45,584 nucleotides of DNA, taken from assembly GCA_045536565.1 (NCBI GenBank), contig JAZSNU010000019.1, forward strand, positions 1 through 45,584, read 5' to 3'. The DNA is from Clostridia bacterium. GTDB taxonomy: Bacteria; Bacillota; Clostridia; TANB77; CAG-465. The notes below the pieces were generated by a model, which saw only the letters and a list, made by a program, of their open reading frames with translations, had not been told where the DNA came from and made no database searches. Position numbers and translations under genes: made by a program. Below, one piece after another: positions 34,226 to 41,979 of this stretch. Numbering within the stretch: the first letter of the stretch is position 1; each line of letters starts with the position of its first letter.

Positions 34226-36232
34226 TTAGCTTTCAATAAATTGTTCAAGTTCGCTTGAAGTTACAATCTTGTTCTTTATGAGATATTTTGCCATCTTATC
34301 AATCTCGTTCCAATGCTTATCTATAAATTCTTCTGTTTTGCTATATACGCGCTTAATAAGTTGGTTAGCCTTCTCATCAATTTTTGCAGCAAGTTTTTCG
34401 TTAAATAAATCTTCATCCAAAAGATAAATATTTTTGTATTCTTCATCGTCCATACCATATTCAGCAATAACCTGTTTAGCATATTCTTTTGCTTTTTTTA
34501 GATCAGACCTAGCACCAGAGGTAAGTTGTTTGGAAACCCTTTCTTGTGCAACTCTTCCAGCAAGCAAAAACATAATGTATGCGTCTACAAATTCTTTATC
34601 AGCAGAAACAAAACCATCTTTTTCTTCAAGTATGTTTACACCTAAGAAACCATCACCAGGTATAATTGAAATAGCCTTTACATCGTATGCTTCTTTTTCC
34701 TTTGTAAGTCTATTTACAATATAATGACCTATTTCATGGTACGCAATATCTCTTATATCTTTTTTAGAAATATTTTCATGCATTTTGAAACATTCATCAT
34801 ATACCGCATTTATATATGCTTTTGTAACAGTCTTCTTGTTTTTCATTTTTGTAATTGCCATACTTCTGTCGCAAAGGTCTAATGTCTTATCCGGATTACA
34901 ACTTTCAAAATTAAAGCAGCTAGAACAAAGTATAATATAGTCGAGTAATTTGCTTGGCATTTTTACTCCATGATACTCTTCCATCTTTTTAATTTTAGCC
35001 TTTATCATGTCTTTTATCTCTGAATTTTTGGGTTCCTTTATTTTTATAACTTCAAATCTCCTTTTAAAAGCACCATCCCTAGATAAAATACTGTTGTATT
35101 CATTTACTGTCGTAGCACCTACAAAAACAACATCATCTCTTGAAAGGACAGGTTTTAACGAACCACTAAGATCAACCGTTCCCTCTGATGTTCCACCAGC
35201 ACCAAGCATCTGATGCATTTCATCTACAAAAAGAATAACTTTTGGTGTAGTTTCAAGAAACTTTTTAAGAATTGCAACTTTTGTTTCAAATTCACCACGA
35301 TATTTAGTACCTGCAACCATTAAGTTAACATCAAGTGATAAAACCGTATATCCTATAAATTCCTTAGGACAGGTCTCATTTACAATCTCCTGCGTTACAG
35401 CCTCAATAACAGCAGTTTTACCAACTCCTGGCTCACCAACTAGCACAGAATTTCTCTTGGTTTTCTTTGAAGAAACATTGAATACTTTAAATATCTCTTT
35501 ATCGCGGCCAAGAATAGTAATTTCTTCGCCTTTTTCATACTTCTTGTTAAGTACCTCTACACATGTTTCAAGAATTGGTGGAAGTATAATTTCCCTTTGT
35601 GTATTTTCAGAACTTTCACACACATTTGCATTTATCCTTATTGCATTTATAAAATCATCTACATCTATTTCTAGTTGTGTGAGAAGATTTTTCATAAATT
35701 TATATGCGCTTGTGTCTTTGTTTTCCAAAATACAATAGATTATATAATCTAGTTCAATATAGTCCTTACCCATTGTTTTAGAAATACTTAATGCCTTATC
35801 AAATGCTGCTTCAAGTTTGTCGGAATATTGTGGCTCTAATATTTCTTCTCTTTCAAATTCCAACATTCCATAAAAAACATCCATAACTTTATTGGCAAAC
35901 TTTTCATCTTCCGTTTCTTCCTCACATGGTATGAATTCAACATCACCTTCATTTGGCTTTACTTCGTCTTTGAATAATTTTTCAGCAATATCTTTTCCAA
36001 ATATTTCACCAAATACTTCTTTGTTACTTAATATATAACTAATATTTGGACTTACTGTCATATCCATATCCGCAAAACATTTTGAAATTACTGACTCTGT
36101 GTCGTTAATTGCTGCGAATAAAAAGTATGCACTTCTTACCTTCTCGTCATCAAACCGCCAAGCAATATCCGTCGCAATTTCAAATGCCTTTCTCACATTA
36201 CCTGTAACTTTTGCATTTCTCCATTCATACAT
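34226..36232 (-). CDS. Chimeric AAA+ protease: Clp N-domain + ClpA/B/C-type D1 ATPase + FtsH-type M41 peptidase
   Basis: ILGRDKEI, LVGEPGVGKTA, AGTKYRGEFE, LFVDEMH, GATTVNEY, AFKRRF, PDKTLDLCD; then AYHEIGH, ISIIP..FLG, LLAGRVAQE, TSGARSDL, IAEYGM. Confidence 0.88.
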   Translation of the reverse strand: MYEWRNAKVTGNVRKAFEIATDIAWRFDDEKVRSAYFLFAAINDTESVISKCFADMDMTVSPNISYILSNKEVFGEIFGKDIAEKLFKDEVKPNEGDVEFIPCEEETEDEKFANKVMDVFYGMLEFEREEILEPQYSDKLEAAFDKALSISKTMGKDYIELDYIIYCILENKDTSAYKFMKNLLTQLEIDVDDFINAIRINANVCESSENTQREIILPPILETCVEVLNKKYEKGEEITILGRDKEIFKVFNVSSKKTKRNSVLVGEPGVGKTAVIEAVTQEIVNETCPKEFIGYTVLSLDVNLMVAGTKYRGEFETKVAILKKFLETTPKVILFVDEMHQMLGAGGTSEGTVDLSGSLKPVLSRDDVVFVGATTVNEYNSILSRDGAFKRRFEVIKIKEPKNSEIKDMIKAKIKKMEEYHGVKMPSKLLDYIILCSSCFNFESCNPDKTLDLCDRSMAITKMKNKKTVTKAYINAVYDECFKMHENISKKDIRDIAYHEIGHYIVNRLTKEKEAYDVKAISIIPGDGFLGVNILEEKDGFVSADKEFVDAYIMFLLAGRVAQERVSKQLTSGARSDLKKAKEYAKQVIAEYGMDDEEYKNIYLLDEDLFNEKLAAKIDEKANQLIKRVYSKTEEFIDKHWNEIDKMAKYLIKNKIVTSSELEQFIES

Positions 36233-36295
36233 AATTTTATGCCTCCTTATTCATTATTTAATGTTTAATTTTTGCAAACATATTTTATGTCACGA

Positions 36296-36324
36296 ATTAT
36301 ATAATTTTATATTGGAAATGTCAA
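36296..36324 (-). promoter_or_regulatory. Consensus sigma-A promoter of the chimeric protease
   Basis: Perfect TTGACA-17-TATAAT; SD AAGGAGG before the ATG. Confidence 0.8.
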
Positions 36325-36425
36325 TATGTAATGGCGGATATCATATATTAAATATCCATTTATCTATCACACCTGTCTATATTTTTCATATAATATACTA
36401 TCTAATATATATTAATATTAGAAAA

Positions 36426-36959
36426 TATAATATATGGTGGGTGTTATGTATTTAAATTGTGTACTTCGAAATTTTTTATGGTGTTTTCCTTGCAGACTGC
36501 CCTATGGCAGAGGACATTATGTTACAGGATGTGATTTAGTCTTGCTATCTAATGTTATTTCTATCGAACAATGTTTAACTAATTTTTCCTGTAATCTATT
36601 AGGTAATACGCCTAAAAAATCACCCTATCTATTAAATAATCATAGAAAGGAGAAATAAATAATGTCACAAGGTTATAATAATTGGGGCTGTTGCAACTAT
36701 CAAAATGACTATAAAGAAGAGAAAAAAGAAGAATGTTGCTGCTGCAAATGTTGCCATCCAAAAAAAGAAGAACCTAAAAAACAATGTGCTACTATAAAAG
36801 TATGCATTGAAGAAGAAAAGAAAGAAAAAAAAGAAGACAAAAAACAAGATGGCTGTTATTAATTCCAATTAATAAATACCATAAAACATTAACTATGTGC
36901 AAGTGCATTTTTGTATAAACTGCATTTGCACTACATACTCTTCCCACCGTTATATTATA
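36426..36959 (+). other. Segment bracketed by nested long-range inverted repeats (candidate 5'-3' paired structured transcript)
   Basis: 36426-36450 pairs with 36932-36959; 36474-36486 pairs with 36874-36886; several local hairpins. Confidence 0.6.
36662..36862 (+). CDS. Small Cys/Lys/Glu-rich protein (66 aa), putative spore-surface or metal-binding protein
   Basis: SD AAGGAG; ECCCCKCCH and KEEKKE repeats. Confidence 0.7.
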   Translation: MSQGYNNWGCCNYQNDYKEEKKEECCCCKCCHPKKEEPKKQCATIKVCIEEEKKEKKEDKKQDGCY

Positions 36960-37081
36960 ACTTTATTACATAATTATTTCGTATTGCCTATTTAAATTTA
37001 AGATAAGTGCTTTTTCCTTGTTTTTTCATAAGATGTATGCTATACTAACTTTGTTAAAATTATGATTTTAAGGGGGATTTT

Positions 37082-38365
37082 ATGGATAAGATTATTGTTG
37101 ACGGTCCATGCAGATTATCTGGTGAAGTAACTATCAGCGGTGCAAAAAATGCGGCTGTCGCTATTCTTCCTGCAACATTACTTGTTAATGGAAAATGTCA
37201 TTTAGAAAATGTGCCTGATATTAGTGATATTAGGGCTATTATAAAGATACTTAAATCATTAGGTTCAAAAATTGAGTACATAACACAAAATGAACTTATT
37301 ATAGATAATTCAAATATAACTACTGTTGAAGCGCCATATGATTTAACATGTAAATTTAGGGCTTCATATTACCTATTAGGTGCTTTAATAAGTAGATTTG
37401 GAAAAGCACAAATAAGTCTACCTGGTGGTTGTAACTTAGGTGCTAGACCTATCGATCAACATATTAAAGCATTTGAAAAATTAGGTGCAACAGTTGAGGT
37501 TAAAAGAGGAAATGTTTATGCAGATACTAAGGATACTTTATCTGCCGGAAGTATATTCTTTGATGTTGTTAGTGTTGGTGCAACAATTAATGCTATTTTA
37601 GCAGCTACACTTGTACCTGGAACTACAACAATCGAAAACTGTGCAAAAGAGCCTCATGTAGTTGATGTAGCAAACTTTTTAAACTCAATGGGTGCTAACA
37701 TTAAAGGTGCTGGTACAGATGTAATAAAAATAACAGGTGTTTCTTCTTTAAAACAAACATCTAGTTATGCTGTTATTCCAGACCAAATTGAAGCTGGAAC
37801 ATTCATGGTTGCTGCTGCTATTACAAAAGGAAATGTTTTAATTAAAAACTGTATTCCAAAACATATGGAACCAATAACTGCAAAACTACTAGAAGCAGGT
37901 GCAGAAGTAACTGAGTTTGAAGATACTATTAGAGTTTCTATGAATGATACTCCTCGCCCTATTAATGTTAAAACCATGCCATATCCTGGATTTCCTACTG
38001 ATATGCAACCACAAATATGTACTCTTATTGCTATTTCAAAAGGAACTGGAATGATTATTGAAAGCATCTGGGAATCAAGATTCCAATATACTGATGAACT
38101 TATTAAAATGGGAGCAGATATAACTGCTCACGGAAGAACAGCTATGGTAAAAGGTGTTAAAGAATTAGAAGGATGCCCTGTTGCAGCCCACGATTTAAGA
38201 GCGGGTGCCGCTATGATTTTAGCAGGCTTAGTTGCTCATGGAAAGACCGAAATATATGATATTCACCATATAGAAAGAGGTTATGAAAATATAGTTGATA
38301 AGTTTAGAAGCCTTGGTGCTAAAATAGAATTGGTAAAAGATAAAAGGTGTGATTGTAATGCTTAA
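37082..38365 (+). CDS. murA: UDP-N-acetylglucosamine 1-carboxyvinyltransferase
   Basis: SGAKNAA, RASYYLLG, LPGGCNLGARPIDQH, PYPGFPTDMQ, DLRAGAA, HIERGYE. Confidence 0.97.
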   Translation: MDKIIVDGPCRLSGEVTISGAKNAAVAILPATLLVNGKCHLENVPDISDIRAIIKILKSLGSKIEYITQNELIIDNSNITTVEAPYDLTCKFRASYYLLGALISRFGKAQISLPGGCNLGARPIDQHIKAFEKLGATVEVKRGNVYADTKDTLSAGSIFFDVVSVGATINAILAATLVPGTTTIENCAKEPHVVDVANFLNSMGANIKGAGTDVIKITGVSSLKQTSSYAVIPDQIEAGTFMVAAAITKGNVLIKNCIPKHMEPITAKLLEAGAEVTEFEDTIRVSMNDTPRPINVKTMPYPGFPTDMQPQICTLIAISKGTGMIIESIWESRFQYTDELIKMGADITAHGRTAMVKGVKELEGCPVAAHDLRAGAAMILAGLVAHGKTEIYDIHHIERGYENIVDKFRSLGAKIELVKDKRCDCNA

Positions 38366-40530: not shown

Positions 40531-41979
40531 CTACTGATTATATTTTATATATTTATTAACTATGTCTGTATTAGAATAAATTGCCTTATCCCAAGCATTT
40601 TTATTATATTTACTATTACTCCCATCAAATCTTGCACCTAATTCATATGCCTTAATTAACACTTCGTCAATATCTTTGTTACCATTTTTGAGCAACACCT
40701 TTGTTATATATGTATCCGGAATGTCGAGATTTACTTTAATAGCAGCATCATATTGTTTTTCTTTTATATATCTTATTTTTGTTTCCAATTTATTTATATT
40801 GTTTATGGTACATTCAGTATTCTCTTTTACTATTGGTATATAGTTTGTTATATTGACTATTAAACTAAGTTTATCTTTTGCTTTACTTTGAGAATATATT
40901 GTTACTATTTCTTCTGCTACTGAAAATATATCATCTATATCTTCATATGTTTCATATGGAAGACCAATATTAAAATTTAGTTTAATACTACTCCAATTGT
41001 TTTTAAACACCGTTTTTATCTTTTCTATTAAACTACTTCTATCTATACCTAAACAGTCTATTTCTTTGTTTATTCTTGTGCTACATGTTCCTACATTAAA
41101 GGTAACACTTGCTTTTTCAAAGCATGACAATAATACTGTTATAATATCAGTATTAAAAATACTAAAATCAATATTCTTTATACTTATCCTTATATTTTCT
41201 ATATTTGCTTTTAATCTGTATACTATATCACAAAATTTTATTTCAGTAATTTTATCATAGTTTATAAACGAAACTTTTGTTATTCCTTGATTTTCAATGC
41301 ATTTTTTTACCATATCTATCATACTATCTATATCGTTTACTTCAAGCACATCTACTATTATGCTAGAATTTTCAATTTTTATAGAAGGAATAACATCAGA
41401 TATAGGATAATCAATATCAATGTTTTTATGTATTCCTAATTTTTTTGTTATATAATGAATTACCTCTTTAATTTGTTTATTTTCTTTATCGCATTTTATT
41501 ATTTCATCTACAAAATTTTCTATTAATTTTGTATTTGTATTTTCGTTTACCGTTACAATAATTTCTGGGAATTCTTTATTTCTGTCTGATTTATTTAATG
41601 GAATGTTAGATAGTTTTAACATATTAATAAAATTAGTATAATCTGTTTCATTGTCTATAACAAACACCAACATATTTTTATTTCTTATATTTTTAAAATC
41701 TTCAAGTGAATATAGCTCGTAACTATTTTGCAAAAGTAAATTTTCAAAATCTTTTTCAGGAGTAAAACATCTTGTACAATATACATCGTCAATTTTATTT
41801 ATATTATGATATAGCATTTTTACAACATAATTTGACATTGCTTTTTCATATATGTTTGGATAGCACAATGTTATCGAATATCTATATTTTTGTTTAATAA
41901 TTTGATTAACTTCTCCACCAATATATCTTGCAGGTTTAGTTATATTTTTAAGCATTCCATTTTCTATTATCTCTCTCAC
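40531..41979 (-). CDS. Degenerate homolog of the TIGR03960-type B12-binding radical SAM family, lacking CxxxCxxC
   Basis: KPARYIGGEVN, CYPNIYEKAMS, IKLNFNIGLPYETYEDI, AYELGARFD; no three-cysteine motif in the translation. Confidence 0.7.
   Translation of the reverse strand: MREIIENGMLKNITKPARYIGGEVNQIIKQKYRYSITLCYPNIYEKAMSNYVVKMLYHNINKIDDVYCTRCFTPEKDFENLLLQNSYELYSLEDFKNIRNKNMLVFVIDNETDYTNFINMLKLSNIPLNKSDRNKEFPEIIVTVNENTNTKLIENFVDEIIKCDKENKQIKEVIHYITKKLGIHKNIDIDYPISDVIPSIKIENSSIIVDVLEVNDIDSMIDMVKKCIENQGITKVSFINYDKITEIKFCDIVYRLKANIENIRISIKNIDFSIFNTDIITVLLSCFEKASVTFNVGTCSTRINKEIDCLGIDRSSLIEKIKTVFKNNWSSIKLNFNIGLPYETYEDIDDIFSVAEEIVTIYSQSKAKDKLSLIVNITNYIPIVKENTECTINNINKLETKIRYIKEKQYDAAIKVNLDIPDTYITKVLLKNGNKDIDEVLIKAYELGARFDGSNSKYNKNAWDKAIYSNTDIVNKYIKYNQ

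What the first reader, a model, noticed from the sequence alone, without database searches (positions are those of the whole stretch)
36426..36959. Tiny Cys-rich gene locked inside nested long-range 5'-3' helices
Seen: TATAATATATGGTGGG-TGT-TATGTA (36426-36450) is complementary to TACATA-CTCTT-CCCACCGTTATATTATA (36932-36959), about 500 nt away. Nested inside, TTTTATGGTGTTT (36474-36486) pairs with AAATACCATAAAA (36874-36886), and an 11-bp hairpin (36897-36931) sits between the two 3' arms. The imperfect positions are mostly G-U pairs on the + strand, favouring RNA structure over DNA repeats. A SigK-like AC-N16-CATAnnnTA lies upstream (36369-36395). Inference: an mRNA or dual-function RNA whose UTRs clamp the 66-codon CDS, for stability, RNase III-type processing or circularisation, or translational control during sporulation.
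Basis: partly seen in the sequence, partly recalled or inferred. Interest (0 to 1): 0.7.

Follow-up and report, generated by a model that had tools for sequence, protein, structure and literature searches.

The report
Sporulation mini-operon with end-pairing mRNA
The complementary stretches are really there, but the supposed 5' untranslated region is a conserved small gene sitting ahead of the cysteine-rich one, and the long-range pairing, seen in only three of six related species, would at most mask that first gene's ribosome-binding site.

Summary

The interpretation needs correcting. The "5' UTR" is a protein-coding ORF (ORF1, 36446-36658) with dN/dS of 0.08-0.22. ORF1 is single-copy in 73 of 77 genomes of this bacterial family and in 0 of 123 genomes of sister families. 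It lies directly upstream of murA in 30 of 30 loci. It follows a conserved sigma-K-type promoter.

In sister species ORF1 is fused in frame to the Cys-rich ORF (ORF2, 36662-36862). In the window a TAA separates them.

Two local hairpins covary and are solid: one at the 5' end (36401-36422) and one at the 3' end (36897-36931).

The long-range 5'-3' pairing is better than shuffles in the window, G004 and G003. It is absent in G005, G001 and G002. It shows no change on both sides in the MAFFT-based count and no species-specific co-evolution.

If the pairing is functional, a C-rich patch downstream of the 3' hairpin masks ORF1's Shine-Dalgarno sequence and start codon, as in icaR. No RNA data were available.

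The parts
36296..36324 (-). Sigma-70-type promoter (TTGACA-17-TATAAT, 12 of 12), probably for the divergent Clp_N-AAA-M41 protease gene (34226-36232)
   Evidence: The GTCAAT core is conserved in W, G004 and G003.
36369..36395 (+). Sigma-K-type promoter: AC, 16 nt, CATATAATA
   Evidence: The -10 is invariant in 6 of 6 genus members. CATAnnnTA is found in 25 of 30 family loci. C sits at -18 or -17 in 25 of 29 loci, against 2-6 of 29 at control offsets. The C. difficile sigma-K consensus comes from passages of PMC3789822.
36401..36422 (+). 5'-terminal stem-loop (8 bp), starting at about the expected transcription start
   Evidence: 97.5% of cells paired, with one A-U to G-C double change. The loop length varies. 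Energies are -4.8 to -7.6 kcal/mol. It is absent from other genera.
36426..36450 (+). Outer helix 5' arm. It contains ORF1's Shine-Dalgarno GGTGGG (36436-36441) and its start codon (36446-36448).
   Evidence: P 0.92-0.95 in W.
36446..36658 (+). ORF1: 70-aa conserved small protein of unknown family, ending in TAA at 36656-36658
   Evidence: dN/dS is 0.08-0.22, with third-position changes dominant. Present in 73 of 77 family genomes. Upstream of murA in 30 of 30 loci. No Pfam, NCBIfam or PHROGs match.
36474..36486 (+). Inner helix 5' arm, lying inside ORF1 codons 10-14 (F-L-W-C-F)
36585..36590 (+). UUUCCU inside ORF1, predicted to pair with ORF2's SD (AGGAGA, 36648-36653)
   Evidence: RNAalifold consensus. 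Only one-sided C/U changes, so the support is weak.
36646..36654 (+). Shine-Dalgarno region of ORF2 (AGAAAGGAG)
   Evidence: Found in all 6 genus sequences, including species where ORF1 and ORF2 are fused
36662..36862 (+). ORF2: 66-aa hypervariable Cys/Lys/Glu-rich peptide
   Evidence: Present in 6 of 6 genus genomes. The three insertions seen in run contigs are all 3 nt long. No family match.
36874..36886 (+). Inner helix 3' arm, in the 3' UTR of ORF2
36897..36931 (+). 3' stem-loop (11 bp) without a T tract
   Evidence: 92.4% of cells paired, with 3 pairs showing double changes. Energies are -12.2 to -15.4 kcal/mol. No terminator-like site is found here, although T-tailed terminators occur elsewhere in the window.
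36932..36959 (+). Outer helix 3' arm: TACATA, a C-rich anti-SD-like CCCACC (36943-36948), and an AU-rich TATATTATA
37020..37048 (+). murA's own promoter (TTGTTT, 17 nt, TATACT with TG upstream), followed by murA at 37082-38365
   Evidence: Read by eye from the conserved blocks; coordinates come from the sequence printed. murA is identified.

Best explanation
The 850-nt gap between the protease gene and murA holds a two-cistron sporulation transcription unit, not one tiny gene with long UTRs.

**Gene model.**
- A sigma-K-type promoter (late mother cell) drives ORF1, a roughly 70-aa protein specific to this family of small-genome gut Clostridia. ORF1 always sits in front of murA.
- In this genus ORF1 is followed by ORF2, a hypervariable Cys-rich peptide with its own strong SD and ATG.
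- In sister species the two ORFs are one reading frame. In the window a TAA splits them.
- The genus also gained a stem-loop at the 5' end and another after ORF2. Both probably protect the mRNA ends from exonucleases. This role is inferred.

**Long-range pairing.** It is a lineage-restricted addition, seen in the window, G004 and G003.
- Downstream of the 3' hairpin lie TACATA, a C-rich anti-SD-like patch and an AU-rich run.
- These pair with ORF1's start codon, its SD (GGUGGG) and the AU-rich run upstream of the SD.
- A second, weaker helix ties ORF1 codons 10-14 to ORF2's 3' UTR.
- If these helices form, they close the mRNA into a loop and block ribosome entry at ORF1, much like the 3'-UTR/SD pairing of icaR.
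- I put about 40% on this pairing being functional.

**Protein role.** ORF1 and ORF2 as spore-surface structural proteins is an inference from the promoter type and the amino-acid composition only.
For: **Shown.**
- ORF1 is coding: dN/dS 0.08-0.22 in the four pairs where dS could be estimated, against 0.34-2.0 in the other two frames.
- ORF1 and ORF2 are fused in the 3 sister genomes G003-G005 and in 13 of 15 database homologues. One homologue (P0015) ends like the window.
- Contigs of 3 runs that cover the TAA list no variant there.
- ORF1 family: one copy in 73 of 77 genomes of family f1, and 0 of 123 in other families of the order.
- murA lies downstream in 30 of 30 loci.
- Promoter: CATAnnnTA in 25 of 30 loci. 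C at -18 or -17 in 25 of 29 loci, against 2-6 of 29 at other offsets.
- This matches the clostridial sigma-K consensus: -10 CATATAAT and -35 AC, against ATA for sigma-E (passages of PMC3789822).
- The genome has spo0A (352.6 bits), spoIVA (727.5 bits), and best hits to sigma-K (269.8 bits) and sigma-E (334.3 bits).
- Both local hairpins covary.

**Pairing.**
- Outer duplex against 1000 shuffles: W p<0.001, G004 p=0.003, G003 p=0.026.
- Inner duplex: W 0.003, G004 0.029, G003 0.018.
- In full-length folds the SD is paired with P>=0.93 in these three species.
- Observed 5'x3' pairs exceed 14 of 14 shuffles in each of the three.
- The + strand is always the stronger one.
- The three 3' arms differ (CCCACC, ACCCAU, CCACCAU), yet each complements the same 5' site.
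- The hairpin has no T tail, so transcripts may run on through the outer 3' arm.
- RNase III is encoded in the genome.
Against: - No transcript data exist, so the promoter, the RNA ends and the pairing are all predictions.
- The pairing is absent in G005, which has an intact fused gene (p=0.17, and its inner 3' arm is deleted). It is also absent in G001 and G002.
- On the MAFFT alignment the long-range helices are 68-74% paired, with no change on both sides.
- RNAalifold does not predict them.
- The window's 3' arm pairs better with the 5' arms of G004 and G003 (-22.5 and -22.4 kcal/mol) than their own 3' arms do (-17.5 and -16.0). So there is no sign of co-evolution.
- Shuffled 3' pieces still give 12-18 expected end pairs.
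- The 5' arms are conserved anyway, because they are an SD, a start codon and coding sequence.
- Translating ribosomes would open the inner helix.
- The sigma-K and sigma-E hits fall just below the curated cut-offs.
- A sigma-70-like match also overlaps the same -10 (10 of 12).
- The proteins match no known spore protein family.
Confidence: 0.55

Rival explanations
1. Same gene model, but the long-range complementarity has no function. It is generic end-to-end pairing of an AU-rich RNA, plus sequence inherited by three close relatives.
For: - Shuffled 3' pieces still give 12-18 expected 5'x3' pairs.
- With wide-window dinucleotide shuffles, only the window's outer helix reaches p=0.02. All other tests are at p>=0.13.
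- No change on both sides in the long-range helices.
- Not in the RNAalifold consensus.
- Absent in 3 of 6 species.
- No species-specific co-evolution.
- W, G003, G004 and G005 form one tight clade.
Against: - Three species each exceed their own shuffles, for both helices.
- The 3' arms differ in sequence and register, yet keep complementarity to the same SD.
- The + strand is consistently favoured through G-U pairs.
- C-rich patches are unusual in this 28% GC genome.
Confidence: 0.35
2. One reading: a single 66-codon gene, or a dual-function RNA, whose long 5' and 3' UTRs clamp it for stability, RNase III processing or circularisation.
For: The helices exist and are in the MFE. RNase III is encoded. 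The promoter fits.
Against: - The 220-nt leader is an ORF under purifying selection. It is fused to the Cys-rich ORF in most relatives.
- No Rfam family matches: 0 at gathering scores, and the best E-value is 4.8.
- No data bear on circularisation.
Confidence: 0.05
3. RiPP-like precursor: ORF1 is a conserved leader and the hypervariable Cys-rich part is the core peptide, which gets modified and cleaved.
For: The fused forms have a conserved N-terminal 70 aa followed by a hypervariable Cys-rich tail. A partial B12-binding radical SAM protein lies about 3.6 kb downstream, at 40531-41979.
Against: - In all other genera ORF1 stands alone at about 66 aa.
- The Cys-rich part keeps its own SD and ATG and is a separate cistron in the window and in G001; in G002 most of ORF1 is deleted.
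- The neighbours are housekeeping genes: ruvB, thrS, murA, rlmH and smpB.
- The radical SAM hit is to a widespread uncharacterised family and is below its cut-off (215 against 462 bits).
Confidence: 0.05
4. DNA-level inverted repeats: an invertible phase-variation switch or a miniature mobile element carrying the small gene.
For: Imperfect inverted repeats of about 25 bp flank about 500 bp.
Against: - The orientation relative to murA is the same in 6 of 6 genomes.
- No joint appears in the contigs of 4 runs. Contigs would miss a minority orientation.
- The G-U positions become mismatches on the other strand.
- The genome has no serine recombinase, and none of its 3 tyrosine recombinases is on this contig.
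- The elements are unique in the genome.
Confidence: 0.03

Closest known systems
icaR mRNA of Staphylococcus aureus: the 3' UTR pairs with the SD region (PMC3868564; abstract and outline read)
   Same: A C-rich motif downstream of the coding region (UCCCCUG there; CCCACC, CCACCAU or ACCCAU here) is complementary to the SD of the same mRNA. This would block initiation and create a long duplex that RNase III could cut.
   Different: - Here the 3' arm lies beyond a second cistron and a stem-loop.
- The masked SD belongs to the first of two cistrons (or to a fusion).
- The pairing is found in only 3 of 6 species.
- Nothing has been tested experimentally.
hbs mRNA of Bacillus subtilis: a 14-bp 5'/3'-UTR interaction modulates RNase Y cleavage (PMC5737220; abstract and outline read)
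   Same: A Firmicute mRNA for a small protein, with a structured 5' end and a long-range 5'-3' helix linked to mRNA stability and to initiation.
   Different: In hbs the helix overlaps an RNase Y site in the 5' UTR. Here it overlaps the SD and the start codon. No cleavage site is known here.
Sigma-K-dependent spore coat and exosporium genes, including the Cys-rich CdeC and CdeM of C. difficile (PMC3789822 passages; PMC6101409 and PMC7677010 seen only as search listings)
   Same: A promoter of the AC / CATATAAT type, in a spore-former, driving a small Cys-rich product.
   Different: No sequence or fold similarity to any known coat protein. No localisation data.
Stabilising 5' and 3' stem-loops of long-lived sporulation mRNAs, such as the B. 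thuringiensis cry 3' retroregulator, STAB-SD and the aprE leader (recalled; no call made)
   Same: A stem-loop at each end of a transcript made late in sporulation.
   Different: This is a resemblance recalled from memory only. Half-lives were not measured.

Membership tests
Sigma-K-dependent promoter | -10 element CATAnnnTA / CATATAAT | tested here: met
   36387-36395. Present in 6 of 6 genus members and 25 of 30 family loci.
Sigma-K-dependent promoter | -35 AC about 16-17 nt upstream (sigma-E has ATA instead) | tested here: met
   AC at 36369-70. C at -18 or -17 in 25 of 29 loci; an exact AC in 11 of 29. Four of those rows took a CATA after the SD by mistake.
Sigma-K-dependent promoter | Sigma-K encoded in the genome | tested here: inconclusive
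   The best hit scores 269.8 bits against a cut-off of 298.65. It scores higher on the sigma-K model than on the sigma-E model (196.6 bits).
Sigma-K-dependent promoter | Mapped start site, and loss of expression without sigma-K | not testable with these tools
   No RNA run was listed.
icaR-type 3'-UTR/SD interaction | A 3' motif complementary to the SD of the same mRNA | tested here: met
   W, G004 and G003 have the SD paired at P>=0.93. Duplex p<0.001, 0.003 and 0.026. Not met in G005, G001 or G002.
icaR-type 3'-UTR/SD interaction | The 3' arm lies inside the transcript | not testable with these tools
   The hairpin lacks a T tail, so read-through is plausible. No 3' ends have been mapped.
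icaR-type 3'-UTR/SD interaction | Inhibits initiation, and the duplex is cut by RNase III | not testable with these tools
   Only the rnc gene is shown to be present (243.5 bits).
Intrinsic terminator | A G+C-rich stem followed by a T tract | tested here: not met
   The stem is present, but the tail is TACATACT. Zero terminator-like sites were found in 36000-37300.
Any Rfam family | Covariance-model match at the gathering score | tested here: not met
   0 matches in the window. The best E-value in 36150-37150 is 4.8.
RiPP precursor | Maturation enzymes and an export system next to the precursor gene | tested here: not met
   The 18 neighbouring ORFs scanned are housekeeping genes or gave no family match. 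One partial radical SAM of an uncharacterised family lies about 3.6 kb away.
Invertible DNA switch | Both orientations present, with a recombinase | tested here: not met
   One orientation in 6 genomes and in the contigs of 4 runs. No recombinase on the contig. Raw reads were not available.
Known spore coat or exosporium protein families | Sequence or fold similarity | tested here: not met
   Pfam, NCBIfam and PHROGs give nothing. The best PDB profile E-value is 0.11. The best Foldseek E-value is 3.1.

The most novel reading that the evidence does not exclude
A sporulation mRNA carries an intramolecular anti-SD clamp. By closing or opening ORF1's ribosome-binding site, the clamp would decide what gets made: the Cys-rich tail attached to its conserved 70-aa domain (initiation at ORF1, in fused species) or a free peptide (initiation at the internal SD). 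An RNA loop would then set the ratio of two spore-surface products from one gene. The repeated fusion, splitting and loss of ORF1 within the genus would be evolution tuning that same ratio at the DNA level.
Probability: 0.12. Interest if true: 0.7.

Novelty: new variant of a known kind. Interest (0 to 1): 0.45.

Why it matters
Long-range 5'-3' pairing within a single bacterial mRNA has only a few worked examples; the two read here are icaR and hbs. If this one is real, it would be an example in a sporulation transcript acting on the first cistron of a two-part gene.

Apart from the RNA question, three things came out of the work.
- An uncharacterised small-protein family is nearly universal in one family of small-genome (about 0.9-2 Mb) gut Clostridia.
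- That gene is welded to murA and sits behind a sigma-K-type promoter.
- In one genus it has a hypervariable Cys-rich extension that is fused, split or orphaned in different species.

These are candidate spore-surface components in uncultured gut spore-formers. They also give a clean natural series for studying gene fusion and fission with internal translation starts.

Tried and rejected
- **RNA evidence.** No RNA holder was listed among 24 runs. Only contigs of 4 DNA runs could be laid.
- **Rfam.** Nothing.
- **More loci.** The search for related loci first failed on alignment A1. With A2 it gave only the three sister genomes already held, one near-duplicate of G005 (L024) and one spurious hit (L025, a membrane protein). 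No extra sequences for covariation were obtained.
- **Wide-window duplex test.** Mostly non-significant. Narrower windows gave the per-species results.
- **Family and structure searches.**
  - Pfam, NCBIfam and PHROGs found no family for ORF1 or ORF2.
  - The ESM Atlas gave no usable hit, and a 0.86 chance-level hit for P0044.
  - AF2 of the fused protein was poor (pLDDT 44.3).
  - AF2 of ORF1 with 37 sequences was moderate (pLDDT 66.6).
  - There was no Foldseek or PDB sequence match.
- **ORF1-MurA binding.** A complex-prediction job to test whether ORF1 binds MurA never got a queue place, so there is no result.
- **murA tree.** The rows for G001 and G002 were frame-shifted translations and were ignored.
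- **16S 3' end.** A search of the genome found nothing, so SD strength could not be computed.
- **Element copies.** The 5' and 3' elements were searched for elsewhere in the genome; the locus is unique.

Full report
**1. Observation**

- Outer arms: 36426-36450 and 36932-36959.
- Inner arms: 36474-36486 and 36874-36886.
- 11-bp hairpin: 36897-36931.
- AC-N16-CATATAATA: 36369-36395.
- 66-codon ORF: 36662-36862.

Folding 36400-36970 gives an MFE of -124.1 kcal/mol that contains both long-range helices and the hairpin. Shuffles give -99.8 +/- 6.2 (z -3.94; 0 of 100 as low). The centroid keeps only the outer helix. Of the 35 long-range pairs, 33 are Watson-Crick and 2 are G-U.

Against 3000 random genome places with the same geometry, 0.2% reach the outer duplex energy, 7.5% the inner, and 0.03% both. 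After a scan of 45 kb this is not decisive. The position at the two ends of a transcription unit is what makes it worth pursuing.

**2. What the "5' UTR" really is**

The window lies in a 1.13-Mb genome that is 100% complete and 28% GC. Five other genomes of the same genus hold the orthologous region upstream of murA.

In G004, G003 and G005, the frame that starts at the window's 36446 runs without a stop into the Cys-rich ORF. This gives proteins of 135, 144 and 128 aa.

Over the first 53 codons the substitutions are mostly third-position changes. dN/dS is 0.08-0.22 in the four pairs where dS could be estimated; in the other two pairs dS was saturated. The other two frames give 0.34-2.0 and contain 3-7 stops. 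So 36446-36658 is a coding ORF (ORF1).

A search of 5.8 billion proteins found 15 homologues. Thirteen are fused forms, one ends after ...HRKEK as in the window (P0015), and one is ORF2 only.

In the window a TAA (36656-36658) splits the two ORFs. Contigs of three runs that cover this site, at 90-95% identity, list no variant there. So the TAA is not an assembly error (5 variant rows were not shown).

The state of ORF1 varies across the genus.
- In G001, ORF1 carries an in-frame TGA, and its stop overlaps ORF2's ATG (ATGA).
- In G002, most of ORF1 is deleted.

The motif AGAAAGGAG, and an ATG after it, is found in all six genus sequences. Among the 16 fused proteins, 14 have Met and 2 have Val at the ORF2 start position. 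ORF2 is therefore probably also translated on its own. This is an inference.

**3. ORF1 is a family-wide gene tied to murA**

An exhaustive profile search found 18 proteins at E<=0.001. Most are stand-alone proteins of 60-97 aa.
- In whole genomes there is one copy in 73 of 77 genomes of family f1.
- There are none in the 123 genomes sampled from the four other families of the order.
- murA starts 57-423 nt downstream in 30 of 30 loci.
- In the other genera ORF1 is about 66 aa, has a canonical GGAGGTGA SD, and has no flanking hairpins.

The Cys-rich extension, the 5' stem-loop and the 3' stem-loop are therefore innovations of this genus. The conserved TATGGTGGG (36432-36440) is a degenerate descendant of that SD.

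No Pfam, NCBIfam or PHROGs family matches ORF1 or ORF2. The AF2 model of ORF1 has pLDDT 66.6 and shows a helix, a beta-hairpin and a long helix. It has no PDB neighbour.

**4. Promoter and biology**

CATAnnnTA precedes ORF1 in 25 of 30 loci, and three more loci have CATATAAT or CATATACT.

A C sits 17-18 nt upstream in 25 of 29 loci, against 2-6 of 29 at control offsets. Four of these rows took a CATA after the SD by mistake.

Passages of PMC3789822 state that clostridial sigma-E and sigma-K share the -10. Their -35 elements differ, ATA for sigma-E against AC for sigma-K. They also state that sigK P2 has CATATAAT and AC.

The genome encodes:
- Spo0A and SpoIVA, both above their cut-offs;
- best-reciprocal sigma-K-like and sigma-E-like genes, both just below their cut-offs.

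A spore-surface role for the Cys-rich product is an inference from the promoter type and the composition.

**5. Local hairpins**

On the six-genome alignment:
- The 5' stem-loop (36401-36422) is 97.5% paired, with one A-U to G-C double change.
- The 3' stem-loop (36897-36931) is 92.4% paired, with three pairs changed on both sides.

Loop lengths vary widely, which argues against a protein operator. The 3' stem-loop has no T tract. T-tailed terminators do occur elsewhere in the window. It is therefore more likely a 3' stabiliser or a processing element than an efficient terminator. This is an inference.

**6. Long-range helices**

*Evidence against conservation*
- On the MAFFT alignment the outer helix is 73.6% paired, TATGTA/TACATA 85.7%, and the inner helix 68.3%. 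None has a change on both sides. Slid controls give 33-51%.
- RNAalifold does not predict these helices.
- That alignment does not keep the 3' arms in register, so I also tested each species on its own.

*Evidence for pairing in three species*

| Species | Outer duplex, p vs 1000 shuffles | Inner duplex, p |
|---|---|---|
| W | <0.001 | 0.003 |
| G004 | 0.003 | 0.029 |
| G003 | 0.026 | 0.018 |
| G005 | 0.17 | 3' arm deleted |
| G001 | 0.69 | 0.10 |
| G002 | 0.57 | not tested (ORF1 region mostly deleted) |

- In full-length partition functions, W, G004 and G003 have 5'-3' helices at P 0.77-0.99, with the SD paired at P>=0.93. G005, G001 and G002 have no such helix (G002 shows only one 3-bp contact, at P 0.54).
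- The observed numbers of 5'x3' pairs are 26, 35 and 34. Each exceeds 14 of 14 shuffles. The shuffles still give 12-18 pairs.
- The + strand is stronger than the - strand in 6 of 6 comparisons.
- The 3' arms differ (CCCACC, ACCCAU, CCACCAU) but all complement GGUGGG.

*Further evidence against*
- The window's 3' arm pairs better with the 5' arms of G004 and G003 than their own 3' arms do, so there is no sign of co-evolution.
- W, G003, G004 and G005 are one tight clade.
- In near relatives from sequencing runs, 36434 A>G keeps the pair as G-U, while 36949 G>T and 36426 T>A weaken pairing. The GGTGGG and CCCACC cores are unchanged.

**7. Mechanism**

My best reading is a sigma-K-driven bicistron (or fusion gene) whose mRNA ends are capped by stem-loops. 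In three species a downstream anti-SD-like patch can pair with ORF1's SD and start codon. This resembles icaR (PMC3868564, abstract) and hbs (PMC5737220, abstract).
- The pairing would close the RNA into a loop and block initiation at ORF1.
- RNAalifold also pairs UUUCCU (36585-36590, inside ORF1) with ORF2's SD. That would couple ORF2 translation to ORF1 translation, but the support is weak.
- I put about 40% on the clamp being functional and about 85% on the gene model.

**8. Rivals**
- *DNA inversion.* The orientation is fixed in 6 genomes, there is no joint in the contigs of 4 runs, and there is no recombinase on the contig.
- *RiPP precursor.* ORF1 stands alone in the other genera, there are no maturation genes nearby, and ORF2 has its own SD.
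- *Known RNA family.* None matches.

**9. Verdict**
- The gene model is new but ordinary in kind.
- The clamp is a plausible, lineage-restricted variant of known 5'-3' mRNA interactions, and it awaits transcript mapping and structure probing.

Noticed in passing
window 34226-36232 (-): A 668-aa fusion of a Clp_N-like N-terminus, a ClpA/B-type AAA module and an FtsH-type M41 peptidase domain. A table passage of PMC3789822 lists a sigma-G-controlled M41-family ATP-dependent peptidase in C. difficile. A perfect TTGACA-17-TATAAT lies at 36324-36296 on the - strand.
   Followed up: partly
whole genome G000: A 1.13-Mb, 100%-complete genome still encodes Spo0A, SpoIVA and sigma-E-like and sigma-K-like factors. 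This is a very small genome for a putative spore-former.
   Followed up: partly
window 36585-36590 with 36648-36653: RNAalifold pairs UUUCCU inside ORF1 with AGGAGA, the SD of ORF2. This could be a translational-coupling hairpin. Only one-sided C/U changes are seen.
   Followed up: partly
L005 (G001) and L006 (G002), start of murA: Relative to the window, murA has a one-base frame change about 13 codons in. An alternative in-frame start seems to be used in both genomes.
   Followed up: no
G001, G168, G198, G006 (table): ORF1 homologues with a single in-frame stop (TGA, TGA, TAA, TAA). In G001 the TGA replaces a conserved Gly codon. Decay, recoding or sequencing error were not distinguished.
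   Followed up: no
window 36960-36990: A conserved block, TTATTACATA(A/T)TTATTTC, lies between the outer 3' arm and the murA promoter in the genus. Its function is unknown.
   Followed up: no
window 36662-36680 with 36953-36971: RNAalifold proposes an alternative pairing between the start of ORF2 and the same AU-rich 3' run used by the outer helix. Some pairs change on both sides, but the overall covariation term is unfavourable.
   Followed up: no
window 40531-41979 (-): A partial match to the TIGR03960 B12-binding radical SAM family (215 bits against a cut-off of 462), covering only the N-terminal third of the model.
   Followed up: no
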